A DNA stretch of 64,000 nt from Corallococcus exiguus (GTDB lineage Bacteria > Myxococcota > Myxococcia > Myxococcales > Myxococcaceae). The stretch covers positions 157,827 to 221,826 of the forward strand of contig NZ_JAAAPK010000002.1 of assembly GCF_009909105.1 (NCBI RefSeq), written 5' to 3'. The notes under the pieces were generated by a model. It worked only from the letters and a program-made list of their open reading frames with translations, had not been told where the DNA came from and did no database searches. Both the position numbers and the translations under genes were made by a program. This document shows, one piece after another, positions 1-10,341 of the stretch (position 1 is the stretch's first letter; each line of letters opens with the position of its first letter).

Positions 1-267
1 CGCGACCTTCTTTCCCCGGCGAATCACCCACGCGATCCCCAGCGTGAAGCCCACCAGGAGCAGCAGCGCCAGCACATACCCCGCCCCCATGCCCACCAGG
101 AGCAGCAGCGCGGAGGCGGCTTCCGCCAGGATCAACGTGGCCGCCAGCGGCGCCCCAGCCAGGGCGCGCGGAAGACCAAAGCTCTTGAGTGTCTGGATGA
201 AATCTTCAAAAGGTTTGCGTCCGCGCGCCTTTCCCAACGCGGCGAGCGCGAACACCATGGCCAGCAT
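1..267 (-). CDS. Partial CDS (N-terminal ~89 aa; gene runs off window start): DoxX/MauE-like polytopic membrane protein
   Basis: Own translation of the reverse strand from ATG at 267-265 with an in-frame TAG just upstream: MLAMVFALAALGKARGRKPFEDFIQTLKSFGLPRALAGAPLAATLILAEAASALLLLVGMGAGYVLALLLLVGFTLGIAWVIRRGKKVA. It is open to position 1, and two hydrophobic helices with a central loop resemble the DoxX family. It is absent from the ORF track because there is no stop in the window. Confidence 0.4.
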   Translation of the reverse strand, partial: MLAMVFALAALGKARGRKPFEDFIQTLKSFGLPRALAGAPLAATLILAEAASALLLLVGMGAGYVLALLLLVGFTLGIAWVIRRGKKVA

Positions 268-366
268 CAGTCGACAGCCTAGATTGACCGCGTTCAACGG
301 AAGCCCTCGCGAAAACCACGGCTGGACGTGAATGGCTCACGTCCAGCCGCGGCCGTGAATCAGGAA

Positions 367-522
367 TCAGCAGACAGTGGACTTGACGCAGGGCCCGGTG
401 CAGCTGTGGGACATCCGCTTGGCGGAACAGCACTCGCCGTGGTTCGGAACACAGGCACCTGCGGGAAGCTCGGACAGGAACAACTTCAGGAAGCGGTCAC
501 TCAACGCCTTGAGGATCTTCAT
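367..522 (-). CDS. 51-aa leader-plus-Cys-rich-core peptide (candidate bacteriocin/RiPP-like precursor)
   Basis: Internal ATG of track ORF 367..819(-). Translation is MKILKALSDRFLKLFLSELPAGA|CVPNHGECCSAKRMSHSCTGPCVKSTVC. GGAGA sits 5 nt upstream of the ATG. Codon third positions are strongly G/C, consistent with real coding. The N-terminal amphipathic segment has an LSxEL...GA double-glycine-leader-like ending and is followed by a 28-aa core with 6 Cys. It lies 100 bp upstream, on the same strand, of the DoxX-like gene. Confidence 0.45.
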   Translation of the reverse strand: MKILKALSDRFLKLFLSELPAGACVPNHGECCSAKRMSHSCTGPCVKSTVC

Positions 523-812
523 GGTGTCTCCCTTTCGGTCTGCGTCGAGGGGAGTCGTTCCCTCGGCGCGACATTCGGGTAGGAGGAGGGCCAGGTGGGC
601 GCGGACGGAGCCTCGGCTGCAAACGAGGCCCCGTCCGCTGTGCCTCGGCGGCTGCACGTTTATTTCTCCGGCGCGGACCGCGCGGCCGCGTTGCACGCGA
701 GGGTGAGTGCGGCTTCGGATGGGAACGTGACCGTCACCCTCCAGCCGGGGCAGGCCAGCTACACGGACACCACGCGCAGGCGGACAGGGATTGCCTCCGG
801 GGAATTCGGGTT

Positions 813-1925
813 GTGGCAACTCCGGTCACATTTCGTCCCGCTTTGCGAGAGGATGTTCTTGGGAGGTCTACGACACCTTGTTCGTGTTCCGGAGTCCATG
901 TGACAGTCTCCGCGCGGCGGCTCACGCCGCTGAACCCAAACCATGGAGCTTTGGACATGCGTCTCCCCAGTGCAACGCCTGAGGTGAAGTCCAAGCAGAA
1001 CGGGACCGATCTTCTGCGGCGACTCATCGCCGGGGAGCCGGTGCCGGACGTCTACCCCCTGGGAAGCCTTCGGCACGGCGGCCACAACCTCTTCGTCAAG
1101 AAGGAGAAGACGGAGGAGGAGCTCGCCAAGGAGAAGCTGGCGAAGGAGAAGAGGGAGGCGGAGGCCGCGGCGCTCGAGTTGGCGAAGGCGAAGCTCAAGC
1201 AGGGCCTCATCGCGCAGGGGACACAGCAGGTCCAGGGGTTCGTCGCGGCGTTCCTGCAGAAGCTGGCGGGGCCGCGGCTGGCGGTGTTTCGCGAGGGCAC
1301 AAAGGATGGCCACAAGCACGAGCGGGGGTACCAGAGCTGGGGCAGCGGCACCTCCAGCCTGGGGAGCGTCTATGAGTTCACCTCCGCCGCGAAACCGCTC
1401 GAGGACTACTTCCGCAAGGTCTTCATTGCGATGAAGAACTCCCTGGAGGGGGCCCAGGGGCTCCCGTACCCGTTCCAGATCCGGCTGAGCAAGTATGACA
1501 CCCAGCACGCGCACCTCTTCTACAACCCGGTGCTCGACGAGATGGGTCTCATCTTCCACTCCAAGGAGTATCCGAAGGACATCCCGAGCCTGAGCGACCC
1601 GGGCAAGGCAGGGGACACCTACAACGACTGCGAGGTGCGGGATTCCACCAAACAGCGGTATGCGGAGACCTTCTACGGCCGCAACCTGCTCTGGCTCCAC
1701 AGCACCCAGTCCCTCTACATGCTGGACGGAGCGCCAGACAGCAGCATCTTCAAGGACCTGATCTGGGTCGGCTGGATCGCCGACATGTTCCTCGAGGACG
1801 GTATCCGTGACAGTGACCAGCTCTTCGGCCAGTTCGCCTACAAGGTTGACCAGAGCCTGTTTGGCGTGACGTGGCTCCATATCAACTTCTTTGACTACAA
1901 CATGTTCGTGGGCGTCGCGGCGTAA
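813..1925 (+). CDS. Hypothetical protein with Lys/Glu-rich coiled-coil N-region (alternative start ATG 957)
   Basis: Track ORF of 370 aa containing a KEKLAKEKREAEAAALELAKAKLK repeat segment. No recognisable catalytic motif. Local GC is somewhat lower than the flanks. It is divergent from the Cys-peptide gene. Confidence 0.5.
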   Translation: MATPVTFRPALREDVLGRSTTPCSCSGVHVTVSARRLTPLNPNHGALDMRLPSATPEVKSKQNGTDLLRRLIAGEPVPDVYPLGSLRHGGHNLFVKKEKTEEELAKEKLAKEKREAEAAALELAKAKLKQGLIAQGTQQVQGFVAAFLQKLAGPRLAVFREGTKDGHKHERGYQSWGSGTSSLGSVYEFTSAAKPLEDYFRKVFIAMKNSLEGAQGLPYPFQIRLSKYDTQHAHLFYNPVLDEMGLIFHSKEYPKDIPSLSDPGKAGDTYNDCEVRDSTKQRYAETFYGRNLLWLHSTQSLYMLDGAPDSSIFKDLIWVGWIADMFLEDGIRDSDQLFGQFAYKVDQSLFGVTWLHINFFDYNMFVGVAA

Positions 1926-2274: not shown

Positions 2275-5200
2275 ATGCACGCAATGAGAGCCAGCAGGGT
2301 TCTGCTGTTGGGATTGGTATGTGTTGCCTTGAGCTGTAGCAGCAAGGCGCCGGAAGACAAGCCGTTGGCCCGCAGTGCTTCTCCATTGGTGGAGGAGTGG
2401 ACGGCCACCGGCACCATGGCTGAGTCGCGCAAGTACCACGCAGGCGTGGTGCTGCCGACGGGCAAGGTGCTGGTGATGGGCGGCTACAACGTCAGCGGCT
2501 ACTTGTCCTCCTCCACCGTTTATGACCCTGCGACAGGCACCTGGACGGCCGCCGCCCCCATGCCGGCGCCTCGGCAGGTGCTCACCGCCACGCTGTTGAG
2601 TTCAGGCAAGGTGCTCGTGGCGGGCGGCGAGAACGCGACGGGCCGCCTGGCTTCCACGGCGGTCTATGACCCCGCCACCAACACGTGGGCTTCCGCAGGG
2701 AGTCTTGCCTCGGGTGTGGCTCGCGATTCCCTGACGGCGACGCTGCTGCCTTCGGGCAAGGTGCTGGTCGCGGGCGGAGGCAACACCAGCGGCGCCAAGG
2801 TCAATGTGGATGTGTATGACCCGGTGGCGGGAACCTGGAGCGTGGGCCCGAATCTGGGAACGGCGCGGCGCAATCACACGGCAACGCTGCTGACGACGGG
2901 GCAGGTGTTGGTGGTGGGAGGCGTCGTGAGCGCGAGTCTGGCGACGGCGGAGGTGTATGACCCGACGAGCAATGCCTGGGCGGCGACGGGAGCGCTGGCG
3001 ACGGCGCGCTACAACCATACGGCGACGCGGTTGCCCTCGGGCAAGGTGCTGGTGGTGGGCGGGCGTGGCAGCGGTGTGGGGGTGGTGGGGACGGCGGAGC
3101 TCTACGACCCGAGCGCGGGGACGTGGAGCGCGACGGGCGCGCTGGGGAGTGCGCGGGAGCTGCACACGGCGACGCTGCTGAGCACGGGGAAGGTGCTGGT
3201 GGCGGGAGGTCAGAATGGGAGCGCGTTGAGCAGCGCGGAGCTGTACGACGAGGCCAGCGGGACGTGGAGCGCGACGACGCCGATGGGAGGCGCGAGGTAC
3301 GTGCACGTGGCGGCACCGCTGGAGGGGAAGATTTTGGTGGTGGGAGGAACCGGGAGCGCGAGCCTGGCGACGGCGGAGGTGTATGGGTATGACGCATGCG
3401 CCGGGGTGATCTGCAACAGCGCGCCGGGGTCGTGCCACGAGGCAGCGGGCACGTGTAGCAATGGGGTGTGCAGCTACGCACCGAAGGCTTCGGGCGCGGC
3501 CTGTGATGACGGGAATGCCTGTACCGGAACGGACGCGTGCAACGGCGCGGGTGTTTGCGCGGGAAGCGCCACCCACTGCGACAGCCCGCCCGGGCAGTGC
3601 TACGAGGCGGCGGGCGCATGCAGCAACGGGACGTGCTCCTACACGTACAAGGCGGCCGGCGCGGGGTGTGATGACGGGGATGCATGCACGGTGGGTGAGA
3701 CGTGTAACGGGAACGGAGGGTGCGCGGGGACGCCGGTGAGCTGCACCAGTCCGCCCGGGCAGTGCTACGAGGCGGCTGGCACGTGCAGCGCTGGAGCGTG
3801 CACCTATGCGCCGAAGGCCGCGGGCACCGCCTGCAATGATGGCAACGGGGGGACCCTCAACGACGTGTGCAGCGGGACGGGGGCGTGCGCGGGAGTGCCG
3901 GCGTGCACGACGCCTCCGAGCGCATGCCATGACTCCCCGGGCACCTACGCCAACGGGGCCTGTACGTACCCGGTGAAGGCGGCTGGGACGGCATGCGGCG
4001 CCGGTCAGGTGTGCAACACGACGGGACAGTGCCTGAGCGGGTGCTGGATTGGAGGGGCGTACTACGCGGCGGGGACCACCCACCCCAGCGTGGCCTGCCA
4101 GGAGTGCAACCCGGGCATGACGACGAGCGGTTGGAGCAACAAGGCCGTGGGAAGCACGTGCGCTGCCCCCGCGTACGGAAACTGGGGGAGCTGCGATGGA
4201 TTCAGTGACACGTGCGATGAGTCGGGGAGCCAGTCGCGCACGGTGACGGCGTCTGCCTGCACCAGCAGTGGGGCATGCGCGGGCACGGGCTCGAGCGAGA
4301 CGCAGGCGTGCACGCGAAGCACGGGAGGCACGGCGTGCGGTACGAGCTACGGAGGCTGGGGAAGCTGCGAAGGCTTCAGTGACTTCTGCGACACGACGGG
4401 GACGCAGTCGAGGACGGTGACGGCTTCGACGTGTGGCTCCGGGACGTGCAATGCGTCGAGCAGCAGCACGGAGACGCAGTCGTGTACACGGGCGGCCCCC
4501 AACACGAACTGCGCGGCGCCCAGCTACGGGGCGTGGGGCGCGTGCAGCTTCAGCGATGCCTGTGCGCAGACGGGGACGCAGTCAAGGACGGTGACGAGCT
4601 ACGGCTACAGCTGCGCCAGTGGGCAGTGCGTGGCGTCCACGAGTACGGAGACGCAGGCGTGCTCGCGCAACACGAATGGCGCCAGCTGCGGTGCTCCCAG
4701 CTACGGAAGCTGGGAAAGCTGTGGTGGCTATAGCGATACCTGCGACCAGACGGGAACGCAGTCACGCTCCGTCACTTCGTACACCTGCTCCAACGGGACG
4801 TGCGGTTCCTCCTCTAACTCGGAGTCGCAGGCATGCTCGCGAAACACGGAGGGTACGTATTGCGGTACCACCGCCGGCGGTTGGGGAAGCTGCGGAGGAT
4901 TCAGTGACTACTGCGACGCGTCAGGGTCACAGTCGAGGACCGTGACGGACTACGCGTGCGGAGGTGGATCGTGCAACCCTTCGAGTAGCAACCCTGAGTC
5001 GCGGACGTGCACACGGACGGCACCCGGTCCACAGTCCTGCCAGGCTGGCTCCGAGAGTTGGGGCAGCTGCGGCGGGTTCAGCGACTTCTGCGATTCGACG
5101 GGTACCCGTTCGCACACCGTGACCAGCTATAGCTACAGCTGTTCCACCGGACAGTGTGTGTCCTCGACCTCGACGGGTTCGGAGTCGTGCTCGCGGACTG

Positions 5201-5706
5201 CCCCCGGTCCCCAGCCGTGCCCTTCGAGCTATGGGAGCTGGAGCGCCTGTGGTGGATTCAGCAGTGCATGCGACGCGACGGGCACGCAGTCTCGCCAGGT
5301 GACTCACTACACCTATAACTGCTCGACGGGACAGTGTACGCCAACCTCCAGCAGCTCGGAGACCCAGGCGTGTACGCGGAATCCCGGTCCGGATGCGTGC
5401 GGGGCGCCAGTCGTCGGGCCGTGGGGCACGTGCAACATGGTCACCCCCTGTGGGCAGGGGCTCCAGACAAGGAATGTGACGAGTTACAGCTGCTCAAGTG
5501 ATGCATGCGTGTCGTCCACGACCACGCAGACGCAGGACTGTTCAGTCCCCGCGATTCCGGGTTGGACGCTGTGCGGCGATGGCTCGTGCTCGACCCTGGA
5601 GAACAACAACAATAATTGTGGCGCTTGTGGGAATGCCTGTACGGGCCCCAAGTACAATGTGTGCATGGGCGGGGCCTGCTGCAATTCGCCGACCAATTGT
5701 TTGTAG
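2275..5706 (+). CDS. Large secreted lipoprotein: Kelch beta-propeller, 4 Cys-rich repeats and 8 thrombospondin-type-1-like repeats
   Basis: Track ORF of 1143 aa. The N-terminus MHAMRASRVLLLGLVCVALSC has a lipobox (LSC). Seven Kelch motifs are present (GKVLVxGG ... VYDPxxxTW ... R..HTATLL). Four ~53-aa repeats follow (C..PPGQCYEAAGxCSxGxCxYxxKAAGxxCxDGxxCT...C.G.G.CAG). Eight ~59-aa repeats follow (C.APSYGxWGxCxGFSDxCDxTGTQSRTVTSY.C..G.C..S...ETQxC.R). The C-terminus has a poly-N/Cys-rich tail. Confidence 0.85.
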   Translation: MHAMRASRVLLLGLVCVALSCSSKAPEDKPLARSASPLVEEWTATGTMAESRKYHAGVVLPTGKVLVMGGYNVSGYLSSSTVYDPATGTWTAAAPMPAPRQVLTATLLSSGKVLVAGGENATGRLASTAVYDPATNTWASAGSLASGVARDSLTATLLPSGKVLVAGGGNTSGAKVNVDVYDPVAGTWSVGPNLGTARRNHTATLLTTGQVLVVGGVVSASLATAEVYDPTSNAWAATGALATARYNHTATRLPSGKVLVVGGRGSGVGVVGTAELYDPSAGTWSATGALGSARELHTATLLSTGKVLVAGGQNGSALSSAELYDEASGTWSATTPMGGARYVHVAAPLEGKILVVGGTGSASLATAEVYGYDACAGVICNSAPGSCHEAAGTCSNGVCSYAPKASGAACDDGNACTGTDACNGAGVCAGSATHCDSPPGQCYEAAGACSNGTCSYTYKAAGAGCDDGDACTVGETCNGNGGCAGTPVSCTSPPGQCYEAAGTCSAGACTYAPKAAGTACNDGNGGTLNDVCSGTGACAGVPACTTPPSACHDSPGTYANGACTYPVKAAGTACGAGQVCNTTGQCLSGCWIGGAYYAAGTTHPSVACQECNPGMTTSGWSNKAVGSTCAAPAYGNWGSCDGFSDTCDESGSQSRTVTASACTSSGACAGTGSSETQACTRSTGGTACGTSYGGWGSCEGFSDFCDTTGTQSRTVTASTCGSGTCNASSSSTETQSCTRAAPNTNCAAPSYGAWGACSFSDACAQTGTQSRTVTSYGYSCASGQCVASTSTETQACSRNTNGASCGAPSYGSWESCGGYSDTCDQTGTQSRSVTSYTCSNGTCGSSSNSESQACSRNTEGTYCGTTAGGWGSCGGFSDYCDASGSQSRTVTDYACGGGSCNPSSSNPESRTCTRTAPGPQSCQAGSESWGSCGGFSDFCDSTGTRSHTVTSYSYSCSTGQCVSSTSTGSESCSRTAPGPQPCPSSYGSWSACGGFSSACDATGTQSRQVTHYTYNCSTGQCTPTSSSSETQACTRNPGPDACGAPVVGPWGTCNMVTPCGQGLQTRNVTSYSCSSDACVSSTTTQTQDCSVPAIPGWTLCGDGSCSTLENNNNNCGACGNACTGPKYNVCMGGACCNSPTNCL
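4158..5574 (+). repeat. Eight tandem ~177-bp coding repeats (TSP1-like modules) inside the Kelch lipoprotein gene
   Basis: The ~59-aa unit recurs 8 times in the translated protein with conserved W, C, C, GTQSRTVT, C and ETQxCxR positions. The periodicity is also present at the DNA level. Confidence 0.6.
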
Positions 5707-8379: not shown

Positions 8380-10341
8380 ATGAGCCTCGTCATCGCCCAG
8401 GACATCAGCCTCGCCTACGGAAAGAAGGTCCTCTTCGACGAGGACAATTTCACCCTCGGTCCCAGGGACCGGGTGGGCCTGGTGGGGGCCAACGGGACGG
8501 GAAAGTCGTCCCTCATGAAAATCATCGCCGGGGCGAGCCTGCCGGACGGGGGCACCGTCCAGTACAGCCGCCGGGCCCGGGCGGGCTACCTCCCCCAGGA
8601 AATCGCCGGCCTGCCGGAGGGCACGGTGGTGGAGGCGGTCATGAGCACCGTCCCCGGCCGGGACTCCCTGGAGGTCCGGCTGAAGGACACGGAGGCGGCG
8701 CTCGCCGGCAGCTCGGACGAGGAGGAGCAGCTGGAGCTGGCCCAGACGCTGGCGGACCTCCACGCGGAGCTGGACGACTTCGAGAACCGCTACGGCCGGC
8801 ACCACGCCGAGCGCATCCTCAAGGGCCTGGGCTTCAAGGACGCGGACCTGTCCAAGCCCACCCAGGCGCTGTCCGGCGGCTGGCGCATGCGCGCGGCGCT
8901 GGCGGGACTGCTCCTCCAGGACCCGGACCTGCTGCTGTTGGACGAGCCCACGAACCACCTGGACGTGCCCACGCTCGCGTGGTTCGACGGGTTCCTGCGC
9001 CGCTCCAACAAGGCGATGGTGCTCATCTCCCACGACCGCGACTTCCTCAACCGGCAGATCAACCGGGTGGTGTCCCTGGAGATGGAGGGCGTGCGCGAGT
9101 ACGCCGGCAACTACGAGGACTACAAGCGCCAGCGCGCGGAGGAGATGGTCCTCCTGCAGGCGCGGGCGGAGAAGGTGGAGCAGCGCCGCGCGGAGCTGCA
9201 GGGCTTCATCGACCGGTTCGGTGCGAAGGCCACCAAGGCGAAGCAGGCGCAGAGCCGCGCGAAGATGCTGGCGAAGCTGGAGAAGGTCCAGGTCCTGGAA
9301 GAGCGCCAGACGATGAAGTTCCGCTTCCCGGAAGTGGAGCGCAGCGGCCGGGACGTGGTGTTGATGGAGGACATCACCAAGCGCTACGGCGCGCTCACCG
9401 TCTACGACGGGCTGAACGCGCGGCTGGAGCGCGGCCAGCGCATCGCCGTGGTGGGCGCGAACGGCGCGGGCAAGACGACCCTGCTCAAGATGGTGGCGGG
9501 GGAGCTGGCGCCGGACAGCGGCAAGGTGACGGTGGGGCACAACGTGGTGGTGGGCTATTACGCGCAGCACCACGCGGACAAGCTGGACCGCCGCAACACC
9601 ATCATCGAGGAGGTGCGGCCCCTGGCCGAGGACAAGCCGGAGAGTTACGTGCGCGGCGTGCTGGGCGCGTTCCTCTTCAGCGGCGACGACGTGGACAAGC
9701 CCATCGGCGTGCTGAGCGGTGGCGAGCGCGCCCGCGTGGCGCTGGCGAAGCTGCTGCTGGTGCCGTCCAACTTCCTCCTGATGGACGAGCCGACGAACCA
9801 CCTGGACCTGGACTCGTCGGAGATGCTGATTGAGGCGCTGAAGCTGTACGGCGGCACGCTGCTGTTCGTCAGCCACAACCGCAGCTTCATCAACAACCTG
9901 TGCACGCACGTCTGGGAGGTGGCGGACGGCAAGCTCACGTCGCACGCGGGCAACCTGGACGAGTACCTCTACCACCAGGAGCAGCTGCGCCTGACGGCGG
10001 AGGGCGCGGACACGGGCTCGCCGAGCGGGAAGGGCGGGGCGCCGGGTGCGGGTCCGGTGTCGGAGAAGGACCGCAAGCGCCTGGAGGCGGAGGCCCGTCA
10101 GCGGCGCTCCGTGGTTGAGGGCCCCATCAAGAAGGAGATCGCGAAGCTGGAGGAGCGCATCGCGAAGGTGGAGGCCGAGCAGAAGGAGCGCGAGGGCCAG
10201 CTGGCGGACCCGGTCCTCTACAACGACTTCGCCCGGGCGAAGCCGCTCATGGACGCGCACCGGACGGGCAAGGAGGAGCTGGAGGACCTCTATGCCCGCT
10301 GGGAGGCCGCGCAGGAGAAGCTGGCGGCGGCGCAGGCCTGA
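8380..10341 (+). CDS. ABC-F family ATPase (two ABC cassettes, no TM; EttA/Uup/YheS-like translation factor)
   Basis: Two Walker A motifs (GANGTGKSS and GANGAGKTT), two ABC signatures (LSGGWRMR and LSGGERARV), and two Walker B motifs (LLLLDEPTNHLD and FLLMDEPTNHLD). The C-terminus is a coiled coil. ATG at 8380 gives MSLVIAQDISLAYG. Confidence 0.9.
   Translation: MSLVIAQDISLAYGKKVLFDEDNFTLGPRDRVGLVGANGTGKSSLMKIIAGASLPDGGTVQYSRRARAGYLPQEIAGLPEGTVVEAVMSTVPGRDSLEVRLKDTEAALAGSSDEEEQLELAQTLADLHAELDDFENRYGRHHAERILKGLGFKDADLSKPTQALSGGWRMRAALAGLLLQDPDLLLLDEPTNHLDVPTLAWFDGFLRRSNKAMVLISHDRDFLNRQINRVVSLEMEGVREYAGNYEDYKRQRAEEMVLLQARAEKVEQRRAELQGFIDRFGAKATKAKQAQSRAKMLAKLEKVQVLEERQTMKFRFPEVERSGRDVVLMEDITKRYGALTVYDGLNARLERGQRIAVVGANGAGKTTLLKMVAGELAPDSGKVTVGHNVVVGYYAQHHADKLDRRNTIIEEVRPLAEDKPESYVRGVLGAFLFSGDDVDKPIGVLSGGERARVALAKLLLVPSNFLLMDEPTNHLDLDSSEMLIEALKLYGGTLLFVSHNRSFINNLCTHVWEVADGKLTSHAGNLDEYLYHQEQLRLTAEGADTGSPSGKGGAPGAGPVSEKDRKRLEAEARQRRSVVEGPIKKEIAKLEERIAKVEAEQKEREGQLADPVLYNDFARAKPLMDAHRTGKEELEDLYARWEAAQEKLAAAQA

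What the first reader, a model, noticed from the sequence alone, without database searches (positions are those of the whole stretch)
367..522. Unannotated 51-aa leader-plus-Cys-rich-core peptide upstream of a DoxX-like membrane protein
Inside the shadow ORF 367..819(-) there is an ATG with GGAGA 5 nt upstream. It encodes MKILKALSDRFLKLFLSELPAGA-CVPNHGECCSAKRMSHSCTGPCVKSTVC. The N-terminal half is an amphipathic helix ending in an LSxEL…GA element reminiscent of double-glycine-type leaders. The C-terminal 28 aa has 6 Cys. Codon third positions are GC-rich, as expected for a real gene. About 100 bp downstream on the same strand starts a DoxX/MauE-like membrane protein (1..267, partial). DoxX/MauE proteins belong to a family linked to thiol/disulfide chemistry, so the pairing suggests a disulfide-rich or otherwise Cys-modified secreted peptide (bacteriocin/RiPP-like or signalling). 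It is absent from a standard ≥60-aa ORF call.
Basis: partly seen in the sequence, partly recalled or inferred. Interest (0 to 1): 0.6.

Follow-up and report, generated by a model that had tools for sequence, protein, structure and literature searches.

The report
Leader-plus-six-cysteine secreted peptide gene
The 51-codon gene is real and encodes the precursor of a small disulfide-rich secreted peptide, the first gene of a conserved five-gene operon (peptide, MauE, thioredoxin-like protein, ABC exporter, small signal-peptidase-like protease); the family is widespread in myxobacteria and actinomycetes and has never been characterised.

Summary
Window 522..367(-) is a genuine 51-aa gene: RBS GGGAGA, GC3 0.83, 11 close homologues, leader dN/dS 0.19 against core 0.59.

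The window starts inside the next gene. An identical public contig (0 mismatches over 3082 nt) and related loci show a conserved operon: precursor(s), MauE, a membrane-anchored CxxC thioredoxin-fold protein, an ABC exporter without a C39 peptidase domain, and a small S26 signal-peptidase-I-like protease. The same operon occurs in Corallococcus, Vitiosangium, Nocardioides and a Streptosporangiaceae MAG, with unrelated flanks.

A profile search finds 108 clusters (50% identity). They share the leader ...DRLLxLFLPxVEAGA, the junction CVPxxGxxC, and a hypervariable core with mostly 6 or 8 Cys.

My reading is that the invariant A-G-A before Cys+1 is an A-x-A site cut by the operon's S26 protease, not a double-glycine site. 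MauE and the thioredoxin-like protein would form three disulfides, and the ABC protein would export the peptide. The likely product is a 28-aa antagonistic, bacteriocin-like peptide.

No Pfam or NCBIfam model covers the family and no paper found here characterises it. decRiPPter (2020) listed MauE-linked Streptomyces precursors with a homologous leader as a candidate RiPP class. All function is inferred.

The parts
367..522 (-). Precursor peptide gene: 51 codons plus stop at 367-369. Leader is codons 1-23 (454..522). Core is codons 24-51 (370..453), with Cys framework C-x6-CC-x8-C-x3-C-x5-C.
   Evidence: Sequence and ORF. Homologues and alignment. dN/dS leader 0.19, core 0.59. GC3 0.83. Profile search finds 108 clusters. 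AF2 gives core pLDDT 81-92 and leader 55-57.
527..532 (-). Shine-Dalgarno GGGAGA, 4 nt before the ATG.
   Evidence: Sequence. The AAAGG part of the block CCGAAAGG(G/A)(A/C)(G/A/C)ACACCATG is invariant and the following three bases vary among the five loci.
523..555 (-). Conserved 5' untranslated leader (ACTCCCCTCGACGCAGACCGAAAGGGAGACACC). Conservation among loci stops upstream of it.
   Evidence: DNA alignment A3. No sigma-70-like promoter found by the simple scan.
314..354 (-). Strong stem-loop directly after the stop codon (18-bp stem), followed by UUUU in this window. Proposed attenuator or transcript-stabilising hairpin that separates the precursor gene from the machinery genes.
   Evidence: MFE -51.2 kcal/mol for 262..372, z = -4.1, 0 of 200 shuffles as stable. 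Present after every precursor copy in 5 loci, including both tandem copies in L003, with 3 pairs kept through double changes. It is not called by the simple terminator scan, which needs 5 T, and the U-tract is not conserved.
1..297 (-). 5' part (99 codons) of the MauE/DoxX-family membrane protein gene. Start is probably TTG 297..295 (alternative ATG 267..265). The gene runs off the window start; full length is 183 aa, with a CxC motif (VACRCFG) seen on the extending contig.
   Evidence: Pfam MauE E 7.7e-12 on the window fragment and 2.4e-23 on the full-length L004 copy. L001 is identical to the window over 3082 nt and extends 1901 nt further.

Best explanation
Window 522..367(-) encodes the precursor of a small, exported, disulfide-rich peptide and is the first gene of a self-contained five-gene maturation and export operon.

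Proposed mechanism:
1. The 23-residue amphipathic leader (MKxLKALSDRFLKLFLSEVPAGA) is the recognition handle for the operon's machinery.
2. The operon's own minimal S26 (signal peptidase I type, Ser/Lys) protease cuts after the invariant A-G-A. This releases a 28-residue core that begins with Cys.
3. The membrane-anchored CxxC thioredoxin-fold protein, together with the MauE membrane protein (CxC motif), oxidises or shuffles the six Cys into three disulfides. This is the same pairing as MauE/MauD in maturation of the methylamine dehydrogenase small subunit.
4. The ABC half-transporter, which has no C39 domain, moves the peptide across the inner membrane.
5. A conserved hairpin after the precursor gene probably gives more precursor transcript than machinery transcript.

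The hypervariable, mildly cationic core on a fixed Cys scaffold, the tandem paralogues and the mobile, patchy distribution make an antagonistic (bacteriocin- or toxin-like) role the most likely function.

Shown: the gene is real and conserved; the operon composition; the leader/core selection asymmetry; the motif statistics; intact catalytic motifs.

Inferred: the cleavage site and the protease responsible; disulfide formation; the order of steps and the side of the membrane on which they occur; the biological activity.
For: Gene reality.

Operon: precursor, MauE, 173-aa CxxC protein, ABC of about 620 aa, S26 of 145-159 aa. It is seen in L002 (Corallococcus macrosporus), L003 (Corallococcus sp. 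M7, two tandem precursors), L004, L005, L010 (Vitiosangium), L006 (Streptosporangiaceae MAG) and L007 (Nocardioides), with unrelated flanking genes. L001 is identical to the window (0 mismatches in 3082 nt) and carries MauE, the CxxC protein and the start of the ABC gene.

Domain checks: MauE 2.4e-23. S26 matches TIGR02227 at 68 bits against a cutoff of 47. The ABC lacks C39. The CxxC protein profile hits thioredoxins, DsbF and Mpt53 in the PDB down to E 4e-6, with invariant CxxC and cis-Pro. The S26 Ser (SMxP), Lys (VKR) and GDN..S.DSR boxes are invariant.

Family statistics: -1 is A in 117/117, -2 is G in 115/117, -3 is A in 111/117, +1 is C in 117/117. Core Cys number is 6 (61 members) or 8 (34 members), and even in 104 of 117, which points to pairwise bonding.

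Core dN/dS is 0.59 pooled and 1.06 between the tandem paralogues, against 0.19 for the leader. The hairpin is conserved with compensatory changes.

Precedents: a role for MauE in disulfide formation in methylamine dehydrogenase has been speculated, while MauD's function remains unclear, as cited in PMC7794033. DoxX plus thioredoxin genes occur in disulfide-containing class I lasso peptide clusters (PMC9266682).
Against: There is no expression, mass-spectrometry or activity data.

The S26 gene is not seen for this exact strain, because contig L001 ends inside the ABC gene.

No immunity gene and no membrane-fusion or outer-membrane component is conserved next to the operon in the diderm myxobacteria. 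How the peptide would leave the periplasm, and how the producer protects itself, is therefore open.

A crude positive-inside analysis places the MauE CxC loop, the thioredoxin domain and the S26 domain on the Arg/Lys-rich, presumably cytoplasmic, side. That does not fit the simple 'export first, then cleave and oxidise outside' picture.

One variant lacks MauE (L011/L012), and one member appears orphaned (L008/L009).

A thioredoxin-fold protein could act reductively.

The AF2 model gave no coordinates to me and no structural neighbour, so the disulfide connectivity is unknown.
Confidence: 0.65

Rival explanations
1. Same operon logic, but the product is a signalling peptide (intercellular or developmental) rather than an antagonistic one.
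For: It is a small, exported, leader-processed peptide with its own ABC exporter. No immunity gene is conserved next to the operon.
Against: No receptor kinase or regulator is conserved beside the operon in the myxobacterial loci. The core is hypervariable, with dN/dS near 1 between tandem copies. Distribution is patchy and partly on mobile DNA: next to a TrwC relaxase and integrase in L007 and on an Embleya plasmid. This pattern fits antagonism better than a conserved signal-receptor pair.
Confidence: 0.12
2. The Cys-rich peptide is a metal-binding (for example copper) or redox-buffering peptide. MauE and the thioredoxin-like protein keep or set its thiol state rather than forming structural disulfides.
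For: The peptide is Cys-rich. MauE gives a weak sub-threshold match (E 1.2e-4, 22 bits against a cutoff of 80) to the DoxX-like HvfX 'Cu-binding RiPP maturation protein' family. DoxX proteins accompany copper-binding RiPPs (my own knowledge of bufferins).
Against: No MNIO/DUF692-type enzyme and no metal transporter or regulator is conserved in the operon. The non-Cys core residues are hypervariable and Cys numbers change in steps of two, which is typical of disulfide scaffolds. A thioredoxin-fold CxxC protein with homology to DsbF/Mpt53 points to disulfide chemistry.
Confidence: 0.1
3. The invariant A-G-A-C is a lipobox. The peptide would be a tiny lipoprotein processed by Lgt and LspA, with Cys+1 acylated.
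For: Cys is invariant at +1 and is preceded by small residues, which loosely resembles [LVI][ASTVI][GAS]C.
Against: Position -3 is Ala in 111/117 members, not Leu/Val/Ile. The leader carries conserved Asp-Arg at -15/-14 and acidic residues at -4/-6, so it has no uninterrupted hydrophobic core. The operon supplies an S26 (type I) peptidase, not a type II one, and its own ABC exporter. The family also occurs in actinomycetes with the same operon.
Confidence: 0.03
4. It is not a gene but a chance ORF inside the 150-aa GC-rich shadow ORF 367..819(-), or the real gene is one of the overlapping plus-strand ORFs.
For: In 68% GC DNA long spurious ORFs are common, and several overlap here.
Against: Conservation stops about 33 nt upstream of the ATG, while the 51 codons are conserved with mostly synonymous change in the leader. 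GC3 is 0.83 inside the gene against 0.66 upstream in the same frame. There are 108 clusters of homologues, all with the same leader/core architecture and the same neighbouring genes.
Confidence: 0.01

Closest known systems
MauE-associated candidate RiPP families of Streptomyces found by decRiPPter (Kloosterman et al. 2020, PMC7794033)
   Same: These are short precursors with a homologous leader and Cys-rich cores next to mauE (one family also has mauD). Example: MSRALESLSSRLLGLFVPKVEAAASAQAC... The leader matches this family's profile by hhalign at 94.9% probability, E 4.6e-8, over 33 leader columns. They are likewise uncharacterised.
   Different: The Streptomyces precursors have a different junction (AAA/ASA rather than AGA-CVPxxG) and different Cys frameworks. 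That paper, in the passages I read, does not describe the S26 protease or ABC as part of a conserved operon, nor the myxobacterial branch.
Sublancin 168 operon of Bacillus subtilis (sunA-sunT-bdbA-sunS-bdbB)
   Same: A leader-bearing bacteriocin precursor is encoded together with an ABC exporter and a dedicated thioredoxin-like protein plus a membrane thiol-disulfide oxidoreductase that make its disulfides (my own knowledge, not tested here).
   Different: Sublancin has a double-glycine leader cut by the C39 domain of SunT. It uses a DsbB-type (BdbB) rather than MauE-type membrane partner, and it is S-glycosylated. Here there is no C39, no glycosyltransferase, and an S26 protease instead.
Class I lasso peptide clusters (sviceucin, siamycin, humidimycin) with SviE (DoxX) and SviF (thioredoxin, CxxC)
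   Same: A DoxX/MauE-superfamily membrane protein plus a CxxC thioredoxin-domain protein sit in a peptide gene cluster whose product has disulfides, together with ABC transporters (PMC9266682).
   Different: There are no lasso cyclase or B-protease genes here, and the peptides are unrelated. In sviceucin, SviF was dispensable for disulfide formation, so the role of such pairs is not settled.
MauE/MauD of the methylamine dehydrogenase (mau) cluster
   Same: A MauE-family membrane protein sits next to a thioredoxin-like CxxC protein, and the substrate is a small Cys-rich polypeptide. For the MADH small subunit, the source I read says a role for MauE in disulfide formation has been speculated and that MauD's function remains unclear.
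   Different: No mauA, mauB or mauG genes are nearby. The CxxC protein does not reach any NCBIfam MauD model. The substrate is a 28-aa leader-processed peptide.
Operon-encoded dedicated S26 proteases: SipW (tapA-sipW-tasA) and SodX (Ni-SOD maturation protease)
   Same: A small S26 Ser/Lys protease is encoded beside its specific substrate and removes an N-terminal extension (my own knowledge). The S26 here gives a secondary match to the SodX family (E 1.4e-7).
   Different: The substrates are unrelated. SipW substrates have true Sec signal peptides. None of these systems includes an ABC exporter or disulfide machinery.

Membership tests
Double-glycine-leader bacteriocins exported by C39-peptidase ABC transporters | ABC transporter carries an N-terminal C39 cysteine-peptidase domain | tested here: not met
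   The operon's ABC protein is 618-622 aa. Pfam finds only ABC_tran (and ABC_membrane). It aligns to TIGR03796 (peptidase/permease/ATPase) only from model position 160.
Double-glycine-leader bacteriocins exported by C39-peptidase ABC transporters | Leader ends in GG/GA/GS with hydrophobic residues at -4, -7, -12 and Glu at -8 | tested here: not met
   The leader ends in G-A, but -4 is E/D/P/T/K, -6 is E/R/D and -7 is P/G/S in the family logo. The spacing of the LSxE element is shifted by 2 relative to the consensus, which I recalled from memory.
Sec-type signal peptide cleaved by signal peptidase I | Small residues at -3 and -1 (A-x-A) | tested here: met
   A at -3 in 111/117 members and A at -1 in 117/117.
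Sec-type signal peptide cleaved by signal peptidase I | Uninterrupted hydrophobic h-region after a positively charged n-region | tested here: not met
   Conserved D(-15) R(-14) and acidic residues at -4/-6 interrupt the hydrophobic stretch. A dedicated ABC exporter is present instead.
S26 signal peptidase I family (the operon's last gene) | Match above the curated threshold, with intact Ser/Lys dyad boxes | tested here: met
   TIGR02227 scores 68.2 bits (cutoff 47) and Pfam Peptidase_S26 gives E 6e-18. SMxP, VKR and GD..S.DSR are invariant in 6 operon copies. The gene is seen in related loci, not on this strain's short contig.
MauE/DoxX redox-associated membrane proteins | Pfam MauE match above gathering score | tested here: met
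   46.1 bits on the window fragment and 83.3 bits on the full-length protein, against a cutoff of 27.
Methylamine dehydrogenase (mau) maturation system | Co-occurrence with mauA/mauB/mauG, and a MauD-family partner | tested here: not met
   No such genes in 10-kb flanks of L002-L004. The CxxC partner matches only generic thioredoxins.
Thioredoxin-fold thiol-disulfide oxidoreductases (the 173-aa protein) | CxxC active site plus cis-Pro, and profile similarity across the whole fold | tested here: met
   C87, C90 and P151 are invariant in 8 copies. The profile matches thioredoxins, DsbF and Mpt53 over positions about 51-156, with E down to 4e-6. The single-sequence Pfam hit is below threshold.
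RiPPs in the strict sense (core modified by a class-defining enzyme: rSAM, LanM/KC, YcaO, lasso cyclase, MNIO and others) | A class-defining modifying enzyme in the conserved cluster | tested here: not met
   Only MauE, the thioredoxin-like protein, ABC and S26 are conserved; the flanks differ between loci.
Inhibitor cystine knot (knottin) peptides | C-C-CC-C-C framework with knotted 1-4, 2-5, 3-6 connectivity | tested here: inconclusive
decRiPPter 'MauE' candidate RiPP families | Homologous precursor leader next to a mauE gene | tested here: met
   hhalign 94.9% probability, E 4.6e-8, over the leader. mauE is adjacent.

The most novel reading that the evidence does not exclude
This family would be an unrecognised, widespread class of bacterial disulfide-rich mini-proteins. 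Maturation would use (i) a minimal S26 'signal peptidase' re-purposed as a dedicated leader peptidase and (ii) a MauE plus thioredoxin pair acting as a third, substrate-dedicated disulfide-forming system alongside DsbA/DsbB and VKOR. By charge bias, both would work on the cytoplasmic face of the membrane before ABC export. If so, the operon would be a simple genetic handle on the decades-old question of what MauE and MauD actually do.
Probability: 0.25. Interest if true: 0.75.

Novelty: new variant of a known kind. Interest (0 to 1): 0.55.

Why it matters
If the model is right, this operon defines a compact, portable five-gene cassette that makes and exports small, hypervariable peptides with three or four disulfides. 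Both major soil producer phyla carry it (Myxococcota and Actinomycetota), and at least 108 sequence clusters exist, none of them characterised or covered by Pfam or NCBIfam. That would add a source of stable, toxin-like scaffolds for antibiotic or predation research. It would also add a leader-peptidase type (S26, A-x-A) that current RiPP and bacteriocin mining rules do not look for. Finally, it would provide a tractable substrate for working out the biochemistry of MauE/DoxX-type membrane proteins. For annotation, it shows that a 51-codon gene missed by a 60-aa cut-off is the substrate gene of the adjacent operon.

Tried and rejected
- Pfam and NCBIfam gave no hit for the window peptide or for any of 115 family members. 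The only matches were insignificant toxin-like hits at E >= 0.014.
- A sequence search of the PDB with the family profile found nothing at E <= 10.
- Rfam found nothing on 1..1200 at E <= 1.
- The simple promoter and terminator scan found nothing. The hairpin fails its 5-T rule, so I call it terminator-like or stabilising, not a proven terminator.
- The GTDB genome scan with peptide patterns returned only 2 confirmed loci. This method is limited for 51-aa queries, so I used exact-protein look-ups instead.
- The double-glycine/C39 reading is rejected. The lipoprotein reading is considered unlikely. The 150-aa shadow ORF and the plus-strand ORFs are rejected.
- Literature searches for MauE with RiPP, bacteriocin, precursor or BGC terms, for signal peptidase plus thioredoxin plus RiPP, and for the motif string AGACVP found no characterisation.
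- The topology analysis is a home-made hydropathy and charge count.

Full report

Yes. On the minus strand an ATG at 522..520 opens a 51-codon ORF that ends at TGA 369..367. It encodes MKILKALSDRFLKLFLSELPAGACVPNHGECCSAKRMSHSCTGPCVKSTVC.

GC by codon position is 0.46/0.50/0.83. The remainder of the 150-aa ORF 367..819, read in the same frame, gives 0.81/0.60/0.66. Only the last 51 codons therefore look coding.

The downstream gene is MauE/DoxX-like (Pfam MauE 7.7e-12). It probably starts at TTG 297..295, because DNA conservation and the public gene call both begin there.

**2. Is it a gene?**

A word-indexed search of 5.8 billion proteins returned 11 relatives at 52-96% identity, from Corallococcus and Myxococcus genomes and from metagenomes. 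In the alignment the first 23 residues are almost invariant. The last 28 vary, apart from a fixed framework C-x6-CC-x8-C-x3-C-x5-C.

Codon comparison of six distinct gene copies gave these pooled values:

| Region | pN/pS |
|---|---|
| Leader | 0.19 |
| Core | 0.59 |
| Core, two tandem copies in Corallococcus sp. M7 | 1.06 |

DNA conservation between loci starts only about 33 nt upstream of the ATG. This rules out the longer shadow ORF and the overlapping plus-strand ORFs.

**3. What lies around it?**

The window begins inside MauE, so the context had to come from elsewhere. Logan contig L001 overlaps the window over 3082 nt with no mismatch and extends 1901 nt further. It carries, in order:

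- the precursor gene
- the hairpin
- MauE (183 aa, with a VACRCFG motif)
- a 173-aa protein with one N-terminal hydrophobic helix and a GCRPC motif
- the start of an ABC transporter gene

Exact-protein look-ups of homologues gave long contigs. L002 (C. macrosporus), L003 (Corallococcus sp. M7), L004 and L010 (Vitiosangium) were read from gene calls; L005 was read from ORF motifs. All five have the same five genes: precursor(s), MauE, the 172-173-aa CxxC protein, an ABC protein of about 620 aa, and a 145-159-aa Peptidase_S26. The flanking genes differ in every case, so the five genes behave as a module.

The same order is found in actinomycetes. It occurs in a Streptosporangiaceae MAG (L006) and in a Nocardioides-like contig (L007). 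In L007 the S26 gene is an uncalled ORF at 9235..9654, and the cassette sits beside a TrwC relaxase and an integrase.

A Micromonosporaceae variant has precursor, Trx, ABC and S26 without MauE, behind a SARP-type regulator (L011/L012). One member (L008/L009) is not followed by the machinery.

**4. Identity of the parts**

- **MauE.** Pfam E 2.4e-23.
- **The 173-aa protein.** It gives only a sub-threshold thioredoxin hit on its own. A profile of eight copies matches thioredoxins, M. tuberculosis DsbF and Mpt53 over the whole fold (E down to 4e-6). The CxxC and the cis-proline are invariant.
- **The ABC protein.** It is a TMD-NBD half transporter. It aligns with the peptidase-containing NHLM exporter model only from position 160, so it has no C39 domain.
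- **The last protein.** It passes the curated signal-peptidase-I threshold (TIGR02227, 68 bits against 47). It keeps the catalytic Ser box (SMxP), the Lys box (VKR) and the GD..S.DSR box in all six copies aligned. It is a minimal S26 enzyme that lacks the large insertion of housekeeping enzymes.

**5. The family**

A filter-free HMM search of 1.84 billion cluster representatives with the 11-sequence profile found 108 clusters at E <= 1e-3.

Named members come from Streptomyces, Embleya (one on a plasmid), Micromonospora, Hamadaea, Nocardioides, Micromonosporaceae, Vitiosangium and Corallococcus. All are labelled 'hypothetical protein'.

The family logo is ...[GS]-D-R-L-L-x-L-F-L-P-x-V-E-A-G-A | C-V-P-E-x-G-x-x-C...

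| Position | Residue | Count |
|---|---|---|
| -1 | A | 117/117 |
| -2 | G | 115/117 |
| -3 | A | 111/117 |
| +1 | C | 117/117 |

The rest of the core is hypervariable in length and sequence. Core Cys numbers are 6 in 61 members and 8 in 34 members, and they are even in 104 of 117. Cysteines being gained and lost in pairs is what is expected if they are all pair-bonded.

None of 115 members matches any Pfam (2025) or NCBIfam (June 2026) model, and none matches any PDB sequence.

**6. How it most likely works**

The invariant A-G-A before Cys+1 is the classical -3/-1 rule of S26 signal peptidases, and the operon supplies its own S26 enzyme. The exporter has no C39 domain, and the leader lacks the double-glycine hydrophobic register. 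The leader is also not a Sec signal peptide, because conserved Asp-Arg and acidic residues break the hydrophobic stretch.

I therefore infer that the leader is a recognition handle for the operon's own machinery and that the S26 enzyme is the leader peptidase.

The MauE plus CxxC-thioredoxin pair mirrors MauE/MauD. A role for MauE in forming the disulfides of the methylamine dehydrogenase small subunit has been speculated, while MauD's function remains unclear (cited in PMC7794033). It also mirrors the DoxX plus thioredoxin genes of disulfide-containing class I lasso peptides (PMC9266682).

From this I infer formation of three disulfides. The predicted mature mass is 2917.17 Da monoisotopic, with pI 8.35 and net charge +2.

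The ABC protein would export the peptide.

The 18-bp hairpin right after the stop codon scores -51 kcal/mol with z = -4.1. It recurs after every precursor copy, with three compensatory pairs. It probably raises the precursor:machinery transcript ratio, as is usual for bacteriocin structural genes (my inference). Its U-tract is not conserved, and the simple scan does not call it a terminator.

**7. An unresolved point**

In all copies, the thioredoxin-like protein and the S26 protease have no positive charge before their single hydrophobic helix and have two to four Arg after it. In MauE, the Arg/Lys-rich loops include the one carrying the CxC motif.

By the positive-inside rule, all three active sites would face the cytoplasm. 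Cleavage and oxidation would then occur at the inner face, and the folded peptide would be exported afterwards. That order is the one lasso peptides follow.

This rests on a crude calculation and needs reporter-fusion tests. It changes the order of steps but not the parts list.

Also open are how the peptide crosses the outer membrane in myxobacteria and how the producer is protected. No MFP, OMF or immunity gene is conserved nearby.

**8. Function**

Several features fit an antagonistic peptide best (bacteriocin or predation toxin):

- a hypervariable, mildly cationic core on a fixed disulfide scaffold
- tandem diverging paralogues
- a patchy distribution across two phyla
- association with mobile DNA

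Signalling and metal or redox roles are possible but less well supported (see the rival explanations).

**9. Comparison with what is known**

The nearest described thing is bioinformatic only. decRiPPter (2020) listed three MauE-associated candidate RiPP families in Streptomyces. Their precursors, given in its supplement, have a leader homologous to this family (hhalign 94.9%, E 4.6e-8).

Functionally similar systems are:

- the sublancin operon (dedicated Bdb oxidoreductases plus an ABC exporter)
- class I lasso peptide clusters
- MauE/MauD
- operon-encoded S26 proteases (SipW, SodX)

It fails the membership tests for double-glycine/C39 systems, Sec signal peptides, the mau pathway and enzyme-defined RiPP classes.

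No paper in the searchable library characterises it or prints its junction motif.

**10. Verdict**

The finding is real and its core interpretation is right: a disulfide-rich, leader-processed, exported peptide linked to MauE. The leader type and the expected partners need correcting.

It is a member of a large, uncharacterised family that combines known modules in a new way, with an S26 leader peptidase, MauE/Trx and a C39-less ABC exporter. I rate it a new variant of a known kind, of moderate-to-good interest.

Noticed in passing
L003 10001-10156 and 10354-10512: Corallococcus sp. M7 carries two tandem precursor genes (P0005, P0008) ahead of one set of machinery genes. Each is followed by its own copy of the hairpin. 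Their cores differ with dN/dS about 1.06, while the leaders are nearly identical.
   Followed up: partly
L007 1-5646 and 9645-12216; Embleya plasmid copy: In a Nocardioides-like contig the cassette lies next to a TrwC relaxase, an HTH regulator and a phage-type integrase, and is followed by a 912-aa FtsX-domain protein. One Embleya homologue is plasmid-borne. This suggests horizontal mobility and, in actinomycetes, a possible MacB-like immunity pump.
   Followed up: no
L004 6441-6959 and 8824-9264; L001 2786-3337 (equivalent to window 1-297 for MauE): The thioredoxin-like protein and the S26 protease show an inverted charge bias: no K/R before the single TM helix and 2-4 Arg after it. The MauE CxC motif sits in an Arg/Lys-rich loop. 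All three active sites are therefore predicted to face the cytoplasm, opposite to housekeeping signal peptidase I.
   Followed up: partly
window 813-1925 (+) (public call equals 322 aa from about 960): A divergently oriented ORF of 322-370 aa has no Pfam or NCBIfam match at E <= 1. It is not conserved next to the cassette in other genomes, so it is probably unrelated.
   Followed up: partly
window 2275-5706 (+): A 1143-aa ORF has an N-terminal lipoprotein-like signal (…VALSCSS). It continues with a run of Kelch-like repeats (…GKVLVxGG…YDP…W) and then many Cys-rich repeats (…CxxPPGxCxEAAGxCSNGxCxY… and …GxWGSCxGFSDxCDxxGxQSRxVT…). It looks like a large secreted or surface repeat protein.
   Followed up: no
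L011/L012 4125-9099: A Micromonosporaceae variant of the cassette lacks MauE (precursor, Trx, ABC, S26 only). It is preceded by a SARP/BTAD-NB-ARC regulator, which is typical of actinomycete secondary-metabolite clusters.
   Followed up: partly
L010 9615-11754: In Vitiosangium the cassette is followed by DUF5953 and Imm11 genes, which are families linked to polymorphic-toxin immunity. Whether this is coincidence or an antagonism island is unknown.
   Followed up: no
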